The notes under the pieces were generated by a model, which saw only the letters and a list, made by a program, of their open reading frames with translations, did not search any database and had not been told where the DNA came from. A stretch of 64,000 nucleotides of DNA from Escherichia coli. Its GTDB lineage: Bacteria; Pseudomonadota; Gammaproteobacteria; Enterobacterales; Enterobacteriaceae. The DNA lies in assembly GCF_001677475.2 (NCBI RefSeq), contig NZ_CP015229.1. One strand, 5' to 3'. Positions within the stretch are counted from its first letter, which is position 1; each line of letters begins with the position of its first letter. Position numbers and translations under genes: made by a program. This document shows, piece by piece, positions 34,333-56,718 of this stretch.

Positions 34333-34965
34333 TTATTTCACCAGTTCGGGCCATAAACGCAAAGTCGTTCCGGCAATCTGCATCAGTTTTTCCAGCGATG
34401 CACCTTCGCGTGCGCTGATCGACATCCCCTGAATAATACAATTAAGGAATTCTGCCAGATGTGTCACGTCACAGTGGGTCGGGATTTCCCCGCGCGCTTG
34501 TCGTTGACATAAAAACTGCTGCAAAGTGCGCTCTTGCATCGCATGGCGTGATTTCAACGTATTGGCGATATCTCCTGAATCCGGGGAGAGGGTGGTGCAG
34601 TTGTTGATCATGAAGCAGCCTGCCGGGGTGTCTTTGCTGGTAAAGCAGTTGGCGATGGCAGCAAAATAGTCAGCCAGCGCAGACTCCACGCTTTTCTCTT
34701 CACAAAACAGCTGTGCTTCATGCTTAGCGGCAAAACGATCGATATAGCGGTCGAGTACGGCGCGGAATAACCCCTCTTTGTTGGTAAATTCCGCGTATAG
34801 CGTGGGCGCTTTGGCTCCGGTCGCTTCGACGAGGTCCGCAAGAGAAGTCGCTTCATAACCATGCTGCCAGAACAATTTCATGGCCTTATCAAGCGCGGCA
34901 TCCCTGTCGAACACTTTTGGGCGGCCACGGCTTTTTTTTACACATTGTGTTGAGTCAGTTGCCAT
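34333..34965 (-). CDS. comR: TetR-family repressor ComR (YcfQ)
   Basis: Start at MATDSTQCVKKSRGRPKVFDRDAALDKAMKLFWQHGYEATSL (210 aa). Confidence 0.93.
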   Translation of the reverse strand: MATDSTQCVKKSRGRPKVFDRDAALDKAMKLFWQHGYEATSLADLVEATGAKAPTLYAEFTNKEGLFRAVLDRYIDRFAAKHEAQLFCEEKSVESALADYFAAIANCFTSKDTPAGCFMINNCTTLSPDSGDIANTLKSRHAMQERTLQQFLCQRQARGEIPTHCDVTHLAEFLNCIIQGMSISAREGASLEKLMQIAGTTLRLWPELVK

Positions 34966-51337: not shown

Positions 51338-53809
51338 TTAAAAATCAGCCTGATTCGGGATCAGTTTTTGCCAGATAGCTGAAACGTATTTTGCCTGGTG
51401 ACGAGCGTCATCAAGTGCATTATGGCGCTCACCTTCGAATGGGATAGCAGTTCTGGCATCGAAGTCTATGGTTTTCCCCAGCTCAACGATTGTGCGTACA
51501 TCGCGATCGTTGTAGTAACGCCACGGGCAGGGGATCCCCTGCCGTTCGTATGAACGGCGCAAAATCGTGTTGTCGAAGTTGGCTCCATTTCCCCAGACCT
51601 GAACAAAAAACTCACCGGAGTTTTCGGCGATAAATTCCCGCAATTGCAGTAGTGCATCATCTAACGGGATTTCATCGGTCATAATGGCAGACTGCGCTTC
51701 ACGTGATTGCTTCAGCCACCATTTAATGACGTCACGATCAATGACTCCGCCAGCAGTATCCAGATCGATGGTCTTGCTAAATTCCGGTCCCATATCACCG
51801 GTTTGCGGATCGAAAAATATTGCACCTATTGAGATAATCGGGGCATCAGGATTTTTTCCCATGGTTTCAAGGTCGATCATCAGATGAATCCCCGCTCTGC
51901 TGGTGGATGTGAGATTATGATGACTGTTCATCTTAATTAAGGGATCTGTCGCCTCGCCAGTTTTATTATCGCTGGCGTGATGCTGATTGCCGCCAGGGTT
52001 CTCCTTGTGTGGATGTTCAGCGCCTTCCATTTCCTCCGGATCATTTTCCTGAACTTCAGGCTGATTCTCTTCATCGAATATTTCCTGGTATGTTGCGTCA
52101 CCCATCACCGCGCCACAATCAGGGCAGTTGCCGCCACCGCTCTGACCGCAGGCTGTGCAGACTTTTTCCGGTTCCTGTTGCGCTACTGGCTCAGGTTGTT
52201 TCGTTTCTGGCTCGTTTTGTTGCGTATTTGGGCTGTTTTGTTCCGCTTTCTGGTCGTTCTGTTCCGTTTCTTGCTGGTTCTGGTTCACAGAATCGCGGGT
52301 TTCAATCCCCTTCACCCATTTCGGATCATTCGGATCGCTAATCCCTGCAACAAATTCACCACGTGATACTGCAAGCAGTTCATCGGCGTCATGCTGGCTG
52401 ATATTGGCTGCCTGCATAATTTTGTTTACTTCGTCAGCGGTAACTTTTACCGGCCCTGGTTGTGCGGTCGTGTCAGATGCACCAGTATTTTGTTGTGAAC
52501 CTGAGTATGTACCGTTTTTGCGGGCGAAATATTCTTCTTTCGTGATTTCAGTAGCCCCGGCAGCCAGTGCCTTATCCAGACCAGAAAGTTTGTTTGCGCG
52601 ACCGTATTTTTCGCCATCCTTGTCGGTGAAGAGGAAGTAGAATGGCCCCTCACGCTCTACAGATGGTTCGACTTCCACTTTGCATTCGGTTTTTTCGTTG
52701 TCCGGAATTGCCGTTTCCACTGCATCAGTTTCTGGTACTGGCGACGAGAGAGTATCAGTTGCGCTCTGATTTCTTCCTTCATCTTCAAACACGCCCTTTG
52801 TAGTCAGGTATTCAGTAATGTATTTGTTCAGTGCCACAGGGTCTTTGTGAATGTCGATCGGACGTTCACGAACAAGGCCAAAAATAGTCTGGCGGTCGTA
52901 GCGAAGGGCATCAGGCTGTTTGCGCATTGATGCCGAGATACGCTTCCAGTCTTCGCGGTCGTTGTCGATAACTTCATTTTTTGCCCAGCGATGGATGCTG
53001 CCATCAATGTTTCCGACATCCACATCACCAGGCCAGAGAGCGTAGGCCAGTTCGTCATCCAGTGTTTTCCATGTCTGCTTGTATTCGCGATGAGTGGCAG
53101 CAATGACCGGGCTGATTTTTCCTGTTGAATTTTCAGTGTGCTGTTGATTGGCTCTGGCGCGGGCGAGATCAACAACAGACGTGTATTTTCCGGTTTCCTT
53201 GCGTTCACCTTCGCGACGTTTTTTCCAGATGCGCATCTCTGCCTGAATTTCGGGCCATTTGGCACCAGGCTTACATTTATGCTTAACCCACCCGATGGCA
53301 TGCAGCTTAAGCTCCGGATACATGGCGTTAACTTCTGGCATTTTCATCAACGCTTCAACGATATGTCCGTCGAATGTTGCCATGTCTTCCTGCAACAATT
53401 CCTGCGCGCTAATCACCATATCAACGGTGATGTTTTCACATGTACCGAACTTAACCAGGACCGCGTTCTGTACTTCAAGGGACAGCTTGTCAAAATTGAC
53501 GTTAATAGGATCGGATTCTGGTTCGACCGGAATAAAGGAAGCGGATTCCTCATCCCAGCGGTTTTCCTGCATATATTCGGTATCCCAGGAGTCGATAGCA
53601 GGGCGGGGCATGCCGGGTTTATCTTCGCAGACAAGAAATTTATAAGCGCAGTCCTGAGCAGCAGGATATTGCTCCAGGAATTGCCAGGTAAATTTGGCAC
53701 GGGCGCGGCGTTCATCACCGGCTTCAATGGCAGTGGCTACAGCAACTGCGCCCTCTTCTTTTATTGCCTGTTCGTCCGGAATGGCGGCGCAAATAAAGAC
53801 TTTACTCAT
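51338..53809 (-). CDS. 823-aa multidomain protein: YdfE-like N-terminal region, low-complexity linker, zinc ribbon, C-terminal DEDDh 3'-5' exonuclease domain
   Basis: The C-terminus carries exonuclease motifs MIDLETMG, WGNGANFD and HNALDDARHQ. A CTACGQSGGGNCPDCG ribbon lies at about 52108-52162. The N-terminus MSKVFICAAIPDE... resembles my recollection of K-12 Qin YdfE. Confidence 0.8.
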   Translation of the reverse strand: MSKVFICAAIPDEQAIKEEGAVAVATAIEAGDERRARAKFTWQFLEQYPAAQDCAYKFLVCEDKPGMPRPAIDSWDTEYMQENRWDEESASFIPVEPESDPINVNFDKLSLEVQNAVLVKFGTCENITVDMVISAQELLQEDMATFDGHIVEALMKMPEVNAMYPELKLHAIGWVKHKCKPGAKWPEIQAEMRIWKKRREGERKETGKYTSVVDLARARANQQHTENSTGKISPVIAATHREYKQTWKTLDDELAYALWPGDVDVGNIDGSIHRWAKNEVIDNDREDWKRISASMRKQPDALRYDRQTIFGLVRERPIDIHKDPVALNKYITEYLTTKGVFEDEGRNQSATDTLSSPVPETDAVETAIPDNEKTECKVEVEPSVEREGPFYFLFTDKDGEKYGRANKLSGLDKALAAGATEITKEEYFARKNGTYSGSQQNTGASDTTAQPGPVKVTADEVNKIMQAANISQHDADELLAVSRGEFVAGISDPNDPKWVKGIETRDSVNQNQQETEQNDQKAEQNSPNTQQNEPETKQPEPVAQQEPEKVCTACGQSGGGNCPDCGAVMGDATYQEIFDEENQPEVQENDPEEMEGAEHPHKENPGGNQHHASDNKTGEATDPLIKMNSHHNLTSTSRAGIHLMIDLETMGKNPDAPIISIGAIFFDPQTGDMGPEFSKTIDLDTAGGVIDRDVIKWWLKQSREAQSAIMTDEIPLDDALLQLREFIAENSGEFFVQVWGNGANFDNTILRRSYERQGIPCPWRYYNDRDVRTIVELGKTIDFDARTAIPFEGERHNALDDARHQAKYVSAIWQKLIPNQADF

Positions 53810-53902
53810 TTTGTTTTAACCTCATTACAGATTTAAGGGTGAACAAATCCCTGCCATTGCTGGCATATAAAAATGAAACCGGATATTAATTACGGTGCTG
53901 TT

Positions 53903-54094
53903 TTAAAGTCCTGCCGGTATTTCGTTATTATTAGTGTGAGTAGTTTTATCTACCGGATAACAGTTACCGGGAATTTTTTGTTCTGCTGCTGCAGCCATGC
54001 ATTCTTTCATTGAACCGTATAAGCCAGTCACCAGCTCAAGAGATTCGCCGGAAACAAGATAAACTGTCAGAACGAGTGCAAATGTTGTATTCAT
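53903..54094 (-). CDS. ydfD: YdfD-like small membrane (lysis-associated) protein
   Basis: 63 aa starting MNTTFALVLTVYLVSGESLELVTG. It has an ATGA overlap with the dicB homologue, as in the Qin dicBF operon. Confidence 0.75.
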   Translation of the reverse strand: MNTTFALVLTVYLVSGESLELVTGLYGSMKECMAAAAEQKIPGNCYPVDKTTHTNNNEIPAGL

Positions 54095-54279
54095 TGTTTA
54101 TATCCTTTTTGCAGCAGGTCCAGACGAGCCAGCATTGAAGGAATGCATACTTCATTTAACAGGTCCTGCTCGAGTTTTCTCTGCTTAATGGCGTCTTCAA
54201 TAAATGTTTTGTCTCCAGTGATAACGCCAATTTCGAAACGAAGTTCAGACGTGCTGGCATTACATGATAACTTTTCCAT
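54091..54279 (-). CDS. dicB: DicB-like cell-division inhibitor
   Basis: 62 aa from the internal start MEKLSCNASTSELRFEIGVITGDKTFIEDAIKQRKLEQDLLNEVCIPSMLARLDLLQKGYKQ. It shares FEIGV, EDAI and SMLARL blocks with K-12 DicB. An SD GAGGA lies upstream. Confidence 0.8.
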   Translation of the reverse strand: MEKLSCNASTSELRFEIGVITGDKTFIEDAIKQRKLEQDLLNEVCIPSMLARLDLLQKGYKQ

Positions 54280-54449
54280 TATCGCGTCCTCAACAATGAA
54301 TTTTGTGATGCGGTGCCTGGTGCCTCCAGGTGACGTTAACCAGTTAACAATTAACGCAGGATACAGAGAATCCACCCATAACACTGTTTTTGGTTTTTAC
54401 TGTTCCGCGTGCGCTGAGCCGCATTCACCGCATCACAAAATTCACTTTT

Positions 54450-54508
54450 AAAAAAGGGCGGCAGAGCAGTCACGGAGTAAAACTGATACCGCCAAATGTC
54501 ACCAGAAT
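54450..54508 (-). ncRNA. dicF: DicF small RNA (ftsZ-targeting)
   Basis: The minus strand reads attctggtgacatttggcggtatcagttttactccgtgactgctctgccgcccTTTTTT. This is nearly identical to the K-12 DicF sequence I recall, including the terminator hairpin. It lies 170 nt upstream of dicB, as in Qin. Confidence 0.88.
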
Positions 54509-54821
54509 ATTGATAACAGAGGGCGTTGTAGCGGGGTTGTCACTTAAGCGTATGGTCAACCTGACAACCCGGTGTCCTCAACGGGGAAAGGCGTCCCTCC
54601 CACCCCCGCCATACTTACCGCCGCGCCATTTCGCGGGTCGCCACAACCGGAAGCGCACGGTCGAATTAAATTTAACGACACCGTGCAGTGAGACGAACTT
54701 CGCCGTGCGCTTTCGTGTTGTGTGCCTGCTTTTAACCACGTCAGGCGAGGTGGTTTCCGTCATTCCCCAACGACAGGAAATCTGTATAATCTGGGTATCC
54801 CCAACGATCCAAGGAAATCAT

Positions 54822-54923
54822 ATGACAGAGCAAAGAGCACAAGCAGGTGATGGTGTATGGACCGGGATGATATTCTTGACAGAATTTTTTATGGCTATTT
54901 TCTTGAGCAACTGTTTTCTGTAG
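54822..54923 (+). CDS. Candidate 33-aa upstream ORF with a hydrophobic C-terminus (speculative)
   Basis: MTEQRAQAGDGVWTGMIFLTEFFMAIFLSNCFL. A strong SD AAGGAA lies 5 nt upstream, and TATAAT (54785-54790) about 32 nt upstream. It overlaps the start of the 148-aa ORF in another frame. Confidence 0.3.
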   Translation: MTEQRAQAGDGVWTGMIFLTEFFMAIFLSNCFL

Positions 54924-55303
54924 CGACTGGTCGTCTCGATAAACTTCTCTCAGTAGTGAGTATTATCCTCGGTTCATCTGTCATTGGCGGATTCATTCCG
55001 GAAATTTCTGGCGTTTTTATTGTTGTGATCGCAACCGTCCAAACGATTTATGGATTCGGACAAAAGTCAGGTAATACCATGAGAAAATCCGCAGAATATT
55101 TGCAGCTTTTTGATGATGCAGAAAAATATTCTGATTCGGAATTGAAAATTCAGTTAAAAACTCTGGAAAAAACAGATGATCATATTTGGTCATCACTTAA
55201 AGATATTGCGATCTTAAAAACACAGATCAAAATAGGCGTCTCCATCGAACAACAAGAGAAGTTGCCCACAAAATCCAAATTGATGCGATTTCTTTGTGGT
55301 TAG
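54857..55303 (+). CDS. 148-aa two-transmembrane-helix protein of unknown function (moron, opposite to the dicBF operon)
   Basis: A long ORF in AT-rich DNA, where stop codons should be frequent. An SD AGGTGA lies upstream. Two adjacent hydrophobic helices (LLSVVSIILGSSVIGGF and ISGVFIVVIATVQTIYGF) are followed by a charged helical tail of about 80 aa. Confidence 0.7.
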   Translation: MDRDDILDRIFYGYFLEQLFSVATGRLDKLLSVVSIILGSSVIGGFIPEISGVFIVVIATVQTIYGFGQKSGNTMRKSAEYLQLFDDAEKYSDSELKIQLKTLEKTDDHIWSSLKDIAILKTQIKIGVSIEQQEKLPTKSKLMRFLCG

Positions 55304-55392
55304 GAATATCCAGATTGTTAAAGAGCATGCCGGAGGTTTATCCGTGTCCGGCGCACGCACTTCATCTGCGGAGAACTACTTGAGCTCATTGG

Positions 55393-55608
55393 TCAGTAGT
55401 TTTCAATCACTCGCGAAACGTTTAATGCCGCGCTTTTTGCCAGAGTGGTAATATCCTGCTCCGCTGACACCAGTTCTTTAGAGAGGCGCTCTTTGTAGTC
55501 AGCGGCCTGCTTCAGGTCATTAATGGCGCGTATCTTTCCGCACATCCATTCGTAAATTTCATCCTCGGTATAGTCTGGTGCGATGATGACGGGTTCTCGT
55601 TTCTGCAT
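55393..55608 (-). CDS. ydfC: YdfC-like protein
   Basis: 71-aa ORF starting MQKREPVIIAPDYTEDEIYEW, in the position of ydfC in the Qin dicBF operon. Confidence 0.65.
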   Translation of the reverse strand: MQKREPVIIAPDYTEDEIYEWMCGKIRAINDLKQAADYKERLSKELVSAEQDITTLAKSAALNVSRVIENY

Positions 55609-55637
55609 ACTGATTCCTCGCGGTGCCGCTTCGCTTA

Positions 55638-55766
55638 TCAGCCGTTAGATTTTGCCGAACTGGAAAGCGCCTGTTTAAACTCACTGAAGCTGAGAGCTTC
55701 TTCGCCTTCGGCAAGGTCTTCGAAGTATTCTTCGTAAGCCTTTTCCATGATTGCGTCGAAATCCAT
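55638..55766 (-). CDS. ydfB: YdfB-like 42-aa protein
   Basis: Manual translation gives MDFDAIMEKAYEEYFEDLAEGEEALSFSEFKQALSSSAKSNG. It is below the ORF-track size cutoff and replaces the implausible basic 70-aa ORF 55559..55771. Confidence 0.7.
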   Translation of the reverse strand: MDFDAIMEKAYEEYFEDLAEGEEALSFSEFKQALSSSAKSNG

Positions 55767-55767
55767 A

Positions 55768-55923
55768 TCACTCACCTGAATTTCTTTCCAGCCAGCGACG
55801 AGCGCCAGTTTCGGTTTTAAACGTTTTACTTTTGGTATACGTCATCGCGGTGAATGTGCCGTCCTGGTTGGGAAACACGCCGTACACCAGAGATTCGTTG
55901 TTGCCAAGATCGATAGTATCCAT
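55768..55923 (-). CDS. ydfA: YdfA/YdaF-like (DUF1391) 51-aa protein
   Basis: Internal start MDTIDLGNNESLVYGVFPNQDGTFTAMTYTKSKTFKTETGARRWLERNSGE, with an SD GGGGAAATGAGG upstream. Confidence 0.7.
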   Translation of the reverse strand: MDTIDLGNNESLVYGVFPNQDGTFTAMTYTKSKTFKTETGARRWLERNSGE

Positions 55924-56104
55924 GTTGACCTCATTTCCCCTTAACGCTGGGGTAGCGGAACTAAAAACCTGCTGCGCTGTTATACAAAGTGTTCCCGCCG
56001 TCATGTTCATACGCCTCGGGCTGGCTACTTAATCCCTGACCACTACCGGGTAACTCTAGGTATTGCCCTGTATTGTGTGGGACGGGATGGGTTGGTATGG
56101 GAAA

Positions 56105-56147
56105 ACTATAGGAAATGCCTAATTGCTTGTCAATAGGCTATGCCTAA
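56105..56147 (-). promoter_or_regulatory. PL-like promoter with OL operators
   Basis: On the minus strand: TTGACA (56128-56133), 17-nt spacer, TATAGT (56105-56110). Operator-like 15-mers ataggctatgcctaa (56133-56147) and ataggaaatgcctaa (56108-56122) overlap it. Confidence 0.6.
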
Positions 56148-56241
56148 TGATTTGGGTGCGACCTAATAGGTGATGGTTTGTGGGAGAGGTAGTAGGAGTT
56201 AACTAACGGGAACTAGGAATTTCCCGTCGGACCATATAAGT

Positions 56242-56718
56242 TTAAGTTCCTGTCTTGGTGATGTTCTGGCTTTTCCGTTTTGATTCTTGATTTTTCAGAT
56301 AGTTAGCTACCTTCATTTCCATTGCGGCAATGTAGGCGCGAACGTCATGATCAACCCAACTAGGCTCCGTAGCATTTCCAGATAAGAGGAAAGCCACAAT
56401 TGCTCTTTTTTCATCAGAGGCGGCTTGATAAAGGCTGTTTATGTCTAAAAGTTCACTTTTTGTATCTGAAGTGGATGGGGTTGGTATGGGGTATTCGTTA
56501 AGCCCCCAATGCTCTGGACCAACCACATCAGAAAAGAAACGCCATAGTTCTGGAAGTTTGTCTTTACTTATCGAACCTTTCTTAATCCAGTCATGGATTG
56601 ATGGTGGTTGGACTTTGAAATGACGTGCGATTTCCGCCTTTGATTTGACGGCTCCTGATGCAATTTTTTTGTTAATGGCCTGCTCTATCGCTCGGCCTAA
56701 GTCTTTACCACTAAGCAT
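56242..56718 (-). CDS. racR: Prophage repressor, RacR-like
   Basis: 158 aa starting MLSGKDLGRAIEQAINKKIASGAVKSKAEIARHFKVQPPSIHDWIKKGS (HTH). It is divergent from the ydaS/ydaT homologues, as in Rac. Confidence 0.8.
   Translation of the reverse strand: MLSGKDLGRAIEQAINKKIASGAVKSKAEIARHFKVQPPSIHDWIKKGSISKDKLPELWRFFSDVVGPEHWGLNEYPIPTPSTSDTKSELLDINSLYQAASDEKRAIVAFLLSGNATEPSWVDHDVRAYIAAMEMKVANYLKNQESKRKSQNITKTGT

What the first reader, a model, noticed from the sequence alone, without database searches (positions are those of the whole stretch)
54510..55392. About 0.9 kb inserted into the prophage dicBF operon carries an opposite-strand 148-aa two-TM protein with an overlapping hydrophobic upstream ORF
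The leftward operon ydfA-ydfB-ydfC-dicF-dicB-ydfD is recognisable. The ydfC-to-dicF gap here is 884 bp, whereas I recall about 250 bp in K-12 Qin. The extra DNA contains a plus-strand ORF (54857-55303) of about 36% GC. It encodes two adjacent TM helices and then a charged helical tail of about 80 aa. That architecture recalls small membrane effectors of abortive-infection or superinfection-exclusion systems (SLATT-like 2TM proteins), but I could assign no family by eye. A TATAAT box (54785-54790) precedes it. A 33-aa ORF with an excellent SD and a hydrophobic C-terminus (54822-54923) overlaps its start in another frame. A hairpin at 55329-55352 follows it. The gene is antisense to the PL-driven operon. 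It could therefore be expressed in the lysogen and silenced by convergent transcription on induction, which is typical moron or defence-gene logic.
Basis: partly seen in the sequence, partly recalled or inferred. Interest (0 to 1): 0.72.

Follow-up and report, generated by a model that had tools for sequence, protein, structure and literature searches.

The report
Prophage sieB-type cassette, SLATT-like membrane protein
A roughly 570-bp accessory cassette sits backwards inside a prophage's dicBF cell-division operon; it has the control region of the classic phage-exclusion gene sieB but encodes an uncharacterised two-helix membrane protein, and this copy has lost its small partner gene.

Summary
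The 148-aa plus-strand ORF (54857-55303) is real and conserved. It founds an unannotated family: 136 representatives at 50% clustering, none with a Pfam domain. The true insert is about 567 bp (54736-55302), not 0.9 kb. The GC-rich 54510-54735 is the ordinary dicF leader, and the K-12 spacer is 340 bp, not 250.

The 33-aa overlapping ORF is not a gene. It is the scar of a 118-bp deletion between 11-nt direct repeats. That deletion removed a conserved proline-rich small ORF (24-52 aa, motif H-[MIV]-P...P-x-P-x-P), which sits 6-18 nt upstream of the membrane gene in every intact relative.

The about 100 nt in front (54722-54826) are collinear with the sieB leader of P22 and lambda, whose reverse complement is the published P22 antisense RNA sas. 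In IMG/VR this leader precedes at least nine cargo families, and small ORF plus 2TM is the third commonest.

The protein models confidently (pLDDT 88.9) as a 2TM hairpin plus helices. Its links to SLATT are weak but repeated.

Best reading: a lysogen-expressed, sieB-type exclusion or abortive-infection moron with a new SLATT-like cargo, here in a decaying form. Function is untested.

The parts
54736..55302 (+). Inserted cassette relative to empty sites (K-12 Qin, phage Tritos). It comprises the leader, the small-ORF remnant and the 2TM gene. GC is 39.7% against 49.9% for the window.
   Evidence: Alignment with Tritos, K-12, HannyBb and mEp460; blastn against K-12; composition.
54722..54821 (+). 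sieB/sas-type leader. Its parts are GCCTG (54724-28), CCAC (54736-39), TCAGGC (54741-46), GGTGG (54749-53), a hairpin at 54752-54782 with loop ATTCCCCAAC, a second ATCCCCAAC at 54797-54805, and SD AAGGA at 54811-54815.
   Evidence: Collinear with the P22, lambda and Pocitis76 sieB leaders. Conserved in 48 diverged leaders. Hairpin: 7 of 10 pairs show compensatory change.
54787..54792 (+). The implied plus-strand start is near 54797-54800 (inferred).
   Evidence: T1 and A2 are invariant and T6 is at least 90% conserved across 30 diverged leaders (alignment A6). P22 and lambda have TAAACT at the same place. The generic sigma-70 scan did not call it because the -35 is poor.
54707..54826 (-). Predicted sas-like antisense RNA template, placed by homology only. 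It is complementary to the SD and start of the small ORF.
   Evidence: P22 sas RNA (P22 nt 11387-11513, minus strand; Table 2 of PMC13397905) is the reverse complement of the P22 sieB leader, which aligns with this stretch. No transcript data exist for this window.
54822..54923 (+). Remnant of the small proline-rich ORF. About the first 10 codons (MTEQRAQAG.) are fused out of frame into the 2TM gene.
   Evidence: Intact 48-52-aa ORFs are present in L006, L014 and L003. The 118-bp deletion lies between ACAAGCAGGTG repeats; the window keeps one copy at 54839.
54857..55303 (+). 148-aa inner-membrane protein. It has an N-terminal amphipathic helix, a 2TM hairpin (about residues 29-47 and 50-67) and a charged helical C-terminal tail. 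The fold is SLATT-like.
   Evidence: ORF. Homologues down to 20-30% identity. AF2 pLDDT 88.9. Hydropathy and charge. SLATT leads.
55329..55352 (.). Backbone inverted repeat GCCGGA...TCCGGC of the ydfC-dicF spacer. It is not part of the insert.
   Evidence: Present in the K-12 and Tritos empty sites. Folding energy is -14.4 kcal/mol on + and -16.8 on -. It has no U-tract on +.
54456..54507 (-). dicF sRNA gene (context).
   Evidence: Rfam RF00039, 77 bits, E 1.1e-16.

Best explanation
This is a sieB-type prophage accessory cassette with a new cargo, seen here in a degraded state.

SHOWN
- About 567 bp (54736-55302) are inserted, antisense, at a precise point of the ydfC-dicF spacer of a Qin-like prophage.
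- The insert starts with a leader of about 100 nt. That leader is collinear with the one in front of sieB in P22 and lambda, and its complementary strand in P22 is the antisense RNA sas.
- Behind the leader, intact relatives carry two tightly spaced genes. The first is a hydrophilic proline-rich ORF of 24-52 aa. The second is a membrane protein of about 150 aa with a 2TM hairpin and a helical cytoplasmic tail.
- In this window a 118-bp deletion between 11-nt repeats has removed the small ORF.

INFERRED
- In the lysogen the cassette is transcribed rightward from the conserved -10 (TAATCT, 54787-54792), while the dicBF operon is repressed.
- Ribosomes load at the small ORF. They reach the membrane gene by termination and reinitiation, because the small ORF's stop lies inside the membrane gene's SD.
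- The membrane protein acts like SieB and SLATT-type effectors. It would be an inner-membrane protein that aborts or excludes superinfecting phage by compromising the membrane.
- When the prophage itself, or a relative with the same leader, transcribes leftward, a sas-like antisense RNA covers the SD and start and shuts the cassette off.
- In this window translation entry is disturbed, because the remnant ORF reads through the 2TM start in another frame. The copy is therefore probably weakened or on its way to loss.

CONFIDENCE
- The anatomy and ancestry (insert, deletion, sieB/sas-type leader, conserved two-gene unit) are about 0.9.
- The exclusion or abortive-infection function is about 0.4-0.45.
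- The overall figure given is a blend of the two.
For: INSERTION AND ENDS
-.

RARITY
- 71 of 5426 E. coli genomes carry it.

LEADER
- Identity with the sieB/sas locus: Pocitis76 SieB, Pfam 3.7e-21; P22; lambda; published sas sequence and coordinates; alignment.
- Position-specific -10 conservation.
- Hairpin covariation: 35 cells changed on both sides against 14.2 +/- 2.8 in shuffles, and 87% of cells paired against 26-49% when the partner is slid.
- The same leader precedes at least nine different cargo families: 30 phrog_5286-like, 28 phrog_1244-like, 24 small ORF + 2TM and others, in 103 leaders.

SMALL ORF
- It is conserved next to 2TM proteins that are only 20-35% identical to the window's. 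H25, P27 and P37 are near-invariant.
- Between the 90% and 97% alleles its 3' half shows 4 synonymous and 1 non-synonymous difference (read from alignment A4).

PROTEIN
- Conserved family; confident model.
- Two helices with 17-residue Kyte-Doolittle means up to 2.2, and K/R clustered just after TM2.
- SLATT leads.

CONTEXT
- Always in a prophage and always antisense to the surrounding operon.
- Lambdoid left operons.
- Q-holin gap in Sodalis.
- P2-like early operon.

DECAY
- Within the deletion clade L012/L013 have a stop at codon 69, L048 has a frameshift, and L022/L023 carry V61D in TM2.
- None of about 35 small-ORF-intact loci is broken.
Against: - There are no transcript, translation or phenotype data for this cassette. 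Every functional step is by analogy.
- The protein is not a SieB homologue: Pfam SieB does not hit.
- No SLATT model reaches its curated threshold. Pfam gives nothing at E <= 1. NCBIfam SLATT_4 gives 14-16 bits against a cut-off of 55.
- PADLOC 2.0 gives no significant defence assignment.
- The -35 region is poor, and the generic scan finds no promoter.
- No terminator was found for the + strand.
- How P22 sas is made (own promoter or processing) could not be read here, because the original papers are not held. The antisense step in this prophage is therefore unverified.
- Relatives in Sodalis and P2-like prophages lack the sas-type leader, so antisense control is not intrinsic to the two-gene module.
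Confidence: 0.55

Rival explanations
1. Toxin-antitoxin-like pair. The small proline-rich protein neutralises a toxic 2TM protein, and the module stabilises the prophage or fires when the small protein is depleted. One such trigger would be a sas-like RNA from an incoming related phage blocking only the small ORF's start.
For: - The layout is a two-gene operon with a small upstream gene 6-18 nt from a membrane protein.
- After loss of the small ORF, the 2TM gene shows inactivating changes in 5 of about 11 loci (three alleles: a stop in L012/L013, a frameshift in L048, V61D in L022/L023), against 0 of about 35 intact loci.
- The 2TM gene keeps its own SD, AGGTGA, 6 nt before the ATG.
Against: - The window and at least six other loci (L002, L009-11, and H1-H3) keep an intact 2TM ORF without the small gene. 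An essential antitoxin is therefore unlikely unless translation is coupled and now low.
- The broken alleles are few and related, so they are not independent events.
- The small protein has no DNA-binding or known antitoxin domain (PHROGs: nothing).
Confidence: 0.15
2. The small ORF is a regulatory leader peptide rather than a protein partner. Its proline-rich end (up to 8 consecutive Pro) stalls ribosomes just upstream of the 2TM start. Synthesis of the 2TM protein would then report on translation status (EF-P, Pro-tRNA, phage-induced translation stress).
For: - The conserved feature is a short motif, H-[MIV]-P-x(2-4)-[RK]-P-x-P-x-P, placed 3-17 codons before the stop, while the rest of the peptide is free to vary in length and sequence.
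- Runs such as PPPPPPPP (L007) and PPPPPP (L049, L089, L102) occur.
- The stop lies 6-18 nt from the 2TM ATG and inside its SD.
Against: - There are no stalling data.
- Several members have only interrupted P-x-P motifs, which stall weakly.
- Conservation of His and Met/Val before the first Pro would also fit a peptide-protein contact.
Confidence: 0.2
3. Lysogenic-conversion membrane protein with a host-physiology role (stress tolerance, envelope, colonisation), unrelated to phage exclusion.
For: - Other cargo behind the same leader includes a BssS-family biofilm regulator (6.5e-17) and an LprI-like lipoprotein. Neither is an obvious anti-phage protein.
- PADLOC gives no significant defence hit.
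Against: - The only characterised cargo of this leader is SieB, an exclusion protein.
- The nearest recognisable relatives of the fold are defence effectors: SLATT and CBASS 2TM.
- The distribution is strictly in prophages.
Confidence: 0.2
4. In this particular window the gene is a non-functional relic. The deletion uncoupled translation, and the ORF survives only because the event is recent.
For: - The 118-bp deletion removes the partner ORF and leaves an out-of-frame ORF reading across the 2TM start.
- Sister loci of the same deletion clade are broken.
- The window allele carries two private substitutions, L11F (shared with the truncated L012/L013) and A74T.
- The deletion form is rare: H1-H3 and probably H8, of 71 genomes.
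Against: - The ORF, its SD, the leader and the -10 are all intact.
- The deletion form is found in several unrelated strains and in IMG/VR contigs, so it persists.
Confidence: 0.3

Closest known systems
sieB / esc / sas locus of Salmonella phage P22 and coliphage lambda (superinfection exclusion B; Susskind 1974; Ranade & Poteete 1993, cited from PMC10461980 and PMC12197685)
   Same: - The position and orientation match: inside the leftward early operon, on the opposite strand.
- The roughly 100-nt leader matches block for block: GCCTG...CCAC.TCAGGC..GGTGG, a hairpin with a C-rich loop, a TAAnCT -10, a second C-rich box, then SD.
- The leader's complement is the template of the antisense RNA sas.
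- The cargo is a small inner-membrane protein.
   Different: - The cargo is not a SieB homologue. It has no PF14163 match, is 148 aa against about 190, and has a different helix pattern.
- It has an upstream proline-rich ORF instead of an internal in-frame Esc start.
- The loop motif is CCCCAAC instead of ACCCCTAC.
- It sits next to dicF rather than between ral and N.
SLATT-domain effectors (SMODS- and SLOG-associating 2TM effector domain; Burroughs et al. 2015, from my own knowledge), including RT-associated SLATT proteins of DRT/UG systems and 2TM effectors of CBASS
   Same: - The architecture matches: an N-terminal helix, a tight 2TM hairpin and a helical cytoplasmic extension, in about 150-180 aa.
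- It gives sub-threshold hits to SLATT_4, to PADLOC RTasSLATT and to CBASS 2TM effector models.
- SLATT proteins dominate the best Foldseek hits.
- UniRef names one allele a SLATT domain-containing protein.
   Different: - No hit reaches a curated cut-off.
- No nucleotide-signal synthase, sensor domain, RT or TIR lies in any neighbourhood examined.
- The only partner is a tiny proline-rich ORF.
Morons of lambdoid phages (Juhala et al. 2000; Cumby et al. 2012, from my own knowledge; concept used in PMC7067206)
   Same: - It is a discrete insert between two genes of a phage operon.
- Its GC is lower than the surroundings.
- It carries its own promoter-like element.
- It lies antisense to lytic genes.
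- It is absent from close relatives.
   Different: - No terminator of its own was found.
- The insert shares a conserved, structured leader with many unrelated cargo genes. This is more organised than the classic 'promoter-gene-terminator' picture.
Upstream-ORF / leader-peptide control with proline codons (for example mgtL and mgtP of Salmonella, and EF-P-dependent polyproline stalling; from my own knowledge)
   Same: A short ORF with a conserved Pro-rich motif ends a few nucleotides before the regulated gene.
   Different: - There is no evidence of stalling or of alternative RNA structures.
- Residues other than Pro (His, Met/Val, Arg/Lys) are also conserved.

Membership tests
SLATT superfamily | Two adjacent transmembrane helices forming a hairpin, embedded in an all-helical domain of about 150 aa | tested here: met
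   Hydropathy peaks lie at residues about 29-47 and 50-67 with a 2-residue turn. AF2 model (pLDDT 88.9) has helices 3-44, 48-65, 67-86, 93-105, 113-126 and 138-147.
SLATT superfamily | Significant match to a SLATT sequence profile (Pfam SLATT_1-6, NCBIfam SLATT_n) | tested here: inconclusive
   Pfam gives no family at E <= 1 for the window protein and none for 85 family members. NCBIfam SLATT_4 gives E 0.011-0.025 and 14-16 bits against a cut-off of 55 in 3 of 5 diverse members, always over the TM region. PADLOC RTasSLATT has a best E of 2.7e-4, in 5 of 85 members. A UniRef cluster is named 'SLATT domain-containing protein'. No profile-profile test was possible because no SLATT alignment was at hand.
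SLATT superfamily | Fold similarity to SLATT structures or models | tested here: inconclusive
SLATT superfamily | Genomic association with a nucleotide-signal or RT partner (SMODS, SLOG, TIR, reverse transcriptase) | tested here: not met
   No such gene lies within 5-8 kb in eleven contexts. The neighbours are ordinary prophage early or late genes.
sieB/sas-type exclusion locus (P22, lambda) | Gene inside the leftward early operon, transcribed on the opposite strand | tested here: met
   The window gene is on + between ydfC (-) and dicF (-). P22 sieB is on + between ral (-) and gene 24 (-), and lambda sieB is on + between ral/orf28 (-) and N (-).
sieB/sas-type exclusion locus (P22, lambda) | Conserved leader whose complement is the sas antisense RNA | tested here: met
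   Window 54712-54826 aligns block for block with P22 11387-11513 and lambda about 34386-34481. The published sas sequence is the reverse complement of the P22 stretch. Production of such an RNA in this prophage has not been tested.
sieB/sas-type exclusion locus (P22, lambda) | Cargo is a SieB-family protein (PF14163) with an internal Esc start | tested here: not met
   There is no Pfam SieB match at E <= 1, whereas Pocitis76 SieB scores 3.7e-21 behind the same leader. Instead of an internal start there is a separate upstream small ORF.
sieB/sas-type exclusion locus (P22, lambda) | Aborts lytic growth of superinfecting phages | not testable with these tools
   This needs plaque and one-step growth assays with lysogens or the cloned cassette.
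Moron | Discrete insert absent from close relatives, with deviating composition | tested here: met
   Empty sites exist in K-12 and Tritos. The cassette is present in 71 of 4303 genomes that have the flanking DNA. GC is 39.7% against 49.9%.
Moron | Own promoter and own terminator | tested here: inconclusive
   The -10 is conserved position by position, but the -35 is poor and there is no scan hit. No + strand terminator was found, and the nearby hairpin belongs to the backbone.
Type II toxin-antitoxin pair | The toxin gene is maintained only together with its upstream antitoxin gene | tested here: inconclusive
   The window and at least six other loci keep an intact 2TM ORF without the small ORF. 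However, 5 of about 11 loci of that clade carry a stop, a frameshift or a TM-helix Asp, against 0 of about 35 intact loci.
Known anti-phage systems in PADLOC-DB 2.0 | Significant match to a system component model | tested here: not met
   The best hits for the window protein are E 0.008 (Csx1) and 0.013 (RTasSLATT). The small-ORF remnant gives none.

The most novel reading that the evidence does not exclude
The small ORF plus SLATT-like 2TM pair may be a widespread, undescribed abortive-infection module of Enterobacterales prophages. In this reading a proline-rich leader peptide, or the antisense RNA of an incoming related phage, gates synthesis of a membrane-permeabilising effector. The sieB/sas leader would then be a portable antisense-controlled expression platform that lambdoid phages reuse for at least nine unrelated lysogen-expressed cargo genes. 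That would make the sieB locus a defence and accessory-gene hotspot with built-in self-immunity.
Probability: 0.12. Interest if true: 0.8.

Novelty: new variant of a known kind. Interest (0 to 1): 0.55.

Why it matters
- SieB is one of the oldest known prophage exclusion functions, yet its mechanism is still poorly understood. Its antisense switch (sas) is treated as a P22 curiosity.
- This finding shows that the same leader and antisense template sit in front of many unrelated small genes in E. coli, Salmonella, Enterobacter, Klebsiella, Proteus and Hafnia prophages.
- One of the commonest of these is an uncharacterised SLATT-like membrane protein with a conserved proline-rich upstream ORF.
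- If the analogy holds, it offers three things:
  1. A simple sequence handle, the leader, for harvesting lysogen-expressed candidate exclusion genes.
  2. A minimal stand-alone SLATT-like effector, for asking how such proteins are kept silent and then triggered.
  3. A natural partner-deletion allele, this window, for testing what the small ORF does.
- If the analogy does not hold, the locus is still a clean example of a moron hotspot inside the dicBF operon.

Tried and rejected
RNA FAMILIES
- Rfam at E <= 1 over 53800-56300 found only DicF and a sub-threshold STnc100-like match. Nothing was found in the leader on either strand.

PROTEIN FAMILIES AND STRUCTURES
- Pfam, PHROGs and PADLOC on the 33-aa ORF gave nothing.
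- PHROGs on four intact small ORFs gave nothing.
- PDB sequence search with the family profile gave only chance hits.
- AFDB50 was not available.
- The first AF2 run, with 7 sequences, was poor (pLDDT 55.5) and was discarded.

LOCUS SEARCHES
- The search for related loci with the broad alignment failed because no stretch was conserved enough.
- The genome-contig scan with the narrow alignment confirmed no locus.

LEADER STRUCTURE
- RNAalifold did not recover the covarying hairpin on its own alignment. It proposed GGUGG pairing with CCCC, which are invariant columns and so untestable.
- I first read the GC-rich 54510-54790 as a possible structured RNA tied to the gene. I rejected this because 54510-54735 is the ordinary dicF leader, shared with empty-site phages and K-12.
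- I first thought G-U pairs favoured a plus-strand RNA hairpin. A strand-by-strand recount shows the inner 8 pairs fit the minus (sas) strand better, 86% against 80%, so the strand is undecided.
- I considered sigma-32, sigma-E and sigma-54 readings of the invariant boxes and a GcvB/CA-rich enhancer reading. I dropped them for wrong spacing or lack of any test.

LITERATURE
- Searches for dicF hotspot, SLATT with lambdoid, and sieB hotspot found no description of this cassette or of a shared sieB leader.
- The two Ranade & Poteete 1993 papers are not held.
Full report
1. WHAT IS IN THE SEQUENCE

  - DUF1391/ydfA is at 55768-55926, ydfB at 55638-55775 and ydfC at 55393-55608.
  - dicF is at 54456-54507 (Rfam DicF, 77 bits).
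  - dicB is at 54091-54279 (Pfam DicB, 7e-39) and DUF1482/ydfD at 53903-54094.
  - An 823-aa exonuclease gene follows. A DicA-like repressor gene lies at 56242-56718.
- The ydfC-dicF gap is 885 bp.
- The plus-strand ORF 54857-55303 encodes 148 aa at 37.4% GC.

2. THE SIZE AND ENDS OF THE INSERT

- In K-12 MG1655 ydfC ends at 1649041 and dicF starts at 1649382. The normal spacer is therefore 340 bp, not about 250.
- blastn against K-12, and alignment with phage Tritos (an empty site), HannyBb and mEp460, give three results.
  - Window 54456-54735 is the ordinary dicF leader. This is the 'long untranslated region containing dicF' of PMC5069750.
  - Homology resumes at GGAATATCC, immediately after the ORF's stop.
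  - The hairpin at 55329-55352 is present in the empty sites.
- The insert is therefore about 54736-55302, or 567 bp, at 39.7% GC against 49.9% for the window.
- It is rare. Of 5426 complete E. coli genomes, 4303 match part of the query but only 71 carry at least 80% of it.
- No record of 50,697 GenBank phages carries it. Forty IMG/VR contigs do.

3. THE 33-aa ORF IS A DELETION SCAR

- The 97%-identical cassette of strain GB089 (L006) and the 90%-identical one of 2013C-4991 (L003) both carry an intact small ORF. So do the 60-66% relatives L007 and L008. It starts at the same SD and ATG as the window's 33-aa ORF.
- It runs for 43-52 codons and stops 6-18 nt before the 2TM ATG. An example is MTEQRAQAGGGNSTHKTVWDHIPEKNIRPKPSPAPSEERGNSNNQTSR.
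- L006 has ACAAGCAGGTG twice, 118 bp apart. The window has one copy, at 54839.
- The window allele is thus a 118-bp repeat-mediated deletion. It fuses about the first ten codons out of frame to the start of the 2TM gene.
- The same deletion occurs in L002, L009-13, L022/23 and L048.
  - L012/13 have a stop at codon 69.
  - L048 has a frameshift.
  - L022/23 have V61D in the second TM helix.
- None of about 35 loci with the small ORF is damaged. These are few, related alleles, so this is an indication and not a statistic.

4. THE SMALL ORF IS A CONSERVED PARTNER

- Every homologue examined has a hydrophilic proline-rich ORF of 24-52 aa directly upstream. This holds down to 20-35% identity of the 2TM protein.
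- The homologues come from Enterobacter, Proteus, Sodalis, a P2-like E. coli prophage and IMG/VR contigs.
- Aligned, H25, P27 and P37 are near-invariant. The motif is H-[MIV]-P-x(2-4)-[RK]-P-x-P-x-P, and some members have 6-8 consecutive prolines.
- Between the 90% and 97% E. coli alleles the shared 3' half differs at four synonymous sites and one non-synonymous site (read).
- PHROGs has no family for it.

5. THE 148-aa PROTEIN

- A word-indexed search found only 22 close relatives.
- An exhaustive profile search found 136 cluster representatives at E <= 1e-3 and 55 at E <= 1e-10. Nearly all are stand-alone proteins of 145-180 aa.
- None of 85 aligned members hits any relevant Pfam family. All named relatives are 'hypothetical protein' from Enterobacterales. 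PHROG 6315 (unknown function) matches at 7e-24.
- With the 85-sequence alignment AlphaFold2 gives pLDDT 88.9 and pTM 0.77. The model has a long N-terminal helix running into TM1 (3-44), then TM2 (48-65), then four further helices.
- Hydropathy and charge fit an N-in/C-in hairpin with a 2-residue periplasmic turn.
- SLATT leads are as follows.
  - PADLOC RT-associated SLATT (best 2.7e-4) and CBASS 2TM effector (2.8e-4), each in 5 of 85 members.
  - NCBIfam SLATT_4 at E 0.011-0.025 in 3 of 5 diverse members, far below the cut-off.
  - Foldseek against viral models: no hit at E <= 1e-3, but 11 of the top 25 are annotated SLATT.
  - UniRef names the exact protein of L003 'SLATT domain-containing protein'.
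- No solved structure resembles it specifically.
- I treat 'SLATT-like fold' as likely and superfamily membership as unproven. The usual SLATT partners (SMODS, SLOG, TIR, RT) are absent from all neighbourhoods.

6. CONTEXT

- In all eleven neighbourhoods the gene lies in a prophage and points against the surrounding operon.
  - Lambdoid left operons, next to dicF/dicB, kilR, YfdP/DUF2303 or xis-int.
  - The Q-to-holin gap of a Sodalis prophage.
  - The early operon of P2-like prophages, between cox and gene A.

7. THE LEADER

- The 100 nt before the small ORF are far more conserved than the proteins.
- I scanned IMG/VR with TCAGGC-N(2-4)-GGTGG-N(6-16)-TCCCCAA.
- 103 of these are true leaders, with 48 distinct sequences after clustering.
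- The architecture runs in this order:
  - GCCTG...CCAC.TCAGGC..GGTGG;
  - a hairpin whose loop is ATTCCCCAAC;
  - a -10-like TAATCT;
  - a second ATCCCCAAC;
  - the SD and the start codon.
- In the alignment the T1 and A2 of TAATCT are invariant and T6 is at least 90% conserved.
- The hairpin (window 54752-54782) has compensatory changes at 7 of 10 pairs.
  - 87% of cells are paired, against 26-49% when the partner is slid.
  - No shuffle of 500 reaches the observed covariation score.
  - I derived the structure from these sequences, which favours it.
  - RNAalifold did not find it unaided.
- Counting G-U pairs by strand, the inner eight pairs fit the minus strand slightly better, 86% against 80%.
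- Only 24 of the 103 leaders are followed by small ORF + 2TM. The other cargo is as follows.
  - 30 carry a PHROG 5286-like protein.
  - 28 carry a PHROG 1244-like coiled-coil/zinc-ribbon protein.
  - 4 carry an LprI-like lipoprotein.
  - The rest carry a BssS-family protein and several small unknowns.

8. THE LEADER IS THE sieB/sas LOCUS

- A blastn of one leader hit Hafnia phage Pocitis76 just upstream of a gene annotated sieB. Its product matches Pfam SieB at 3.7e-21.
- P22 and lambda have the same leader directly upstream of sieB. The loop box is ACCCCTAC and the -10 is TAAACT. The gene is again on the strand opposite to the PL operon.
- A 2026 paper prints the P22 sas RNA (P22 nt 11387-11513, minus strand). 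It is the exact reverse complement of that leader, from 4 nt past the A of the sieB ATG back through the GCCTG box (PMC13397905).
- sas is described as an antisense RNA that pairs with sieB mRNA. It switches translation from SieB to its inhibitor Esc, letting P22 escape its own exclusion (PMC12197685, PMC7067206, PMC10461980).
- SieB stops macromolecular synthesis midway through the lytic cycle of superinfecting P22-like phages (PMC10461980).
- By homology the window should encode a sas-like RNA on the minus strand at about 54707-54826. This is inferred, not observed.

9. HOW IT MOST LIKELY WORKS

- Shown: an inserted cassette with a sieB/sas-type leader, a deleted small ORF and an intact 2TM gene.
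- Inferred by analogy with sieB:
  - rightward transcription from the conserved -10 in the lysogen;
  - translation entering at the small ORF and passing to the 2TM gene, because the small ORF's stop codon lies within the 2TM SD AGGTGA;
  - a membrane-acting exclusion or abortive-infection role for the SLATT-like protein;
  - silencing by leftward transcription or a sas-like RNA during the prophage's own lytic growth.
- In this window the remnant ORF now reads across the 2TM start in another frame. Expression is therefore probably altered, and sister alleles are decaying.
- Rivals are a TA-like pair, a proline-stalling leader peptide, a host-physiology conversion gene, and a dead relic in this copy. 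The report sections give the result that would refute each.

10. COMPARISON, NOVELTY AND VERDICT

- It works like a sieB locus and looks like a SLATT effector.
  - It fails the membership test for SieB, because it is a different protein family.
  - It has not passed the test for SLATT.
- It is best called a new variant of a known kind: a sieB-type, antisense-controlled prophage moron with a new two-gene cargo.
- I found no paper describing this cassette or the reuse of the sieB/sas leader for other cargo. The library lacks most subscription journals, including the original sieB papers.
- Interest is moderate at 0.55.
  - The family and the shared leader are worth an experiment.
  - The copy in this window is a degraded example.
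  - No function is demonstrated.

Noticed in passing
window 54722-54826; loci L064-L183 (IMG/VR): The sieB/sas-type leader is a widely reused unit in Enterobacterales temperate phages. Among 103 leaders found by pattern, the cargo behind it falls into at least nine unrelated families: 30 PHROG 5286-like, 28 PHROG 1244-like, 24 small ORF + 2TM, 4 LprI-like, plus a BssS-family protein, a zinc-ribbon protein and others. My pattern required TCCCCAA, so it excluded the ACCCCTAC variant that precedes sieB itself.
   Followed up: partly
window 54302-54442 (-): A sub-threshold Rfam match to Salmonella sRNA STnc100 (28.7 bits against a gathering score of 47, E 9.7e-4) lies in the dicF-dicB spacer. It may be a diverged prophage sRNA or leader structure.
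   Followed up: no
L008 3715-3765 (and 3055-3095): In the 60%-identical relative L008, the first box of the leader (GCCTG..TTTTAACCACATCAGGCGCGGTGG) occurs a second time just downstream of the 2TM gene. The cassette is therefore bracketed by direct repeats of about 35 nt. This could mark how cargo is exchanged, or it could be a second, empty leader.
   Followed up: no
L004 (mEp460_ev081) 2760-3029; L063 (HannyBb) 2060-2110: mEp460 has the first 45 nt or so of the leader, followed by a single hairpin/SD and a different 66-aa plus-strand gene. HannyBb has the same 45 nt followed only by a short hairpin. The site next to dicF therefore holds several alternative fillings.
   Followed up: partly
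L029 about 2990-3010: One allele has a 9-bp tandem duplication, TGTATAATC TGTATAATC, which doubles the -10 region of the leader.
   Followed up: no
L050/L051 (Sodalis glossinidius) 5851-6441; L058-L060 (P2-like E. coli prophages) 4908-5486: The small ORF + 2TM pair also occurs without the sas-type leader. It is found between Q and the holin gene of a Sodalis prophage and inside the early operon of P2-like prophages. In both it is again antisense to its neighbours, so the two-gene unit moves independently of the leader.
   Followed up: partly
L007 7830-7982; L049 3170-3289; L089, L102: Some small ORFs contain 6-8 consecutive proline codons (TPPPPPPPPV, KTPPPPPPKK). Such a run normally needs EF-P for translation, which is an unusual feature a few codons upstream of a coupled membrane-protein gene.
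   Followed up: no
L012, L013, L022, L023, L048 (IMG/VR relatives of the window allele): Within the clade that shares the window's 118-bp deletion, the 2TM gene carries a premature stop (codon 69), a frameshift, or V61D/E104G/Q133H. No locus with an intact small ORF is damaged.
   Followed up: partly
family members scanned (L052, L003): There are weak matches (E 0.007-0.11) of the TM region to TIGR04402, 'mobilome CxxCx(11)CxxC protein'. This is another mobile-element membrane family and may share the same 2TM core.
   Followed up: no
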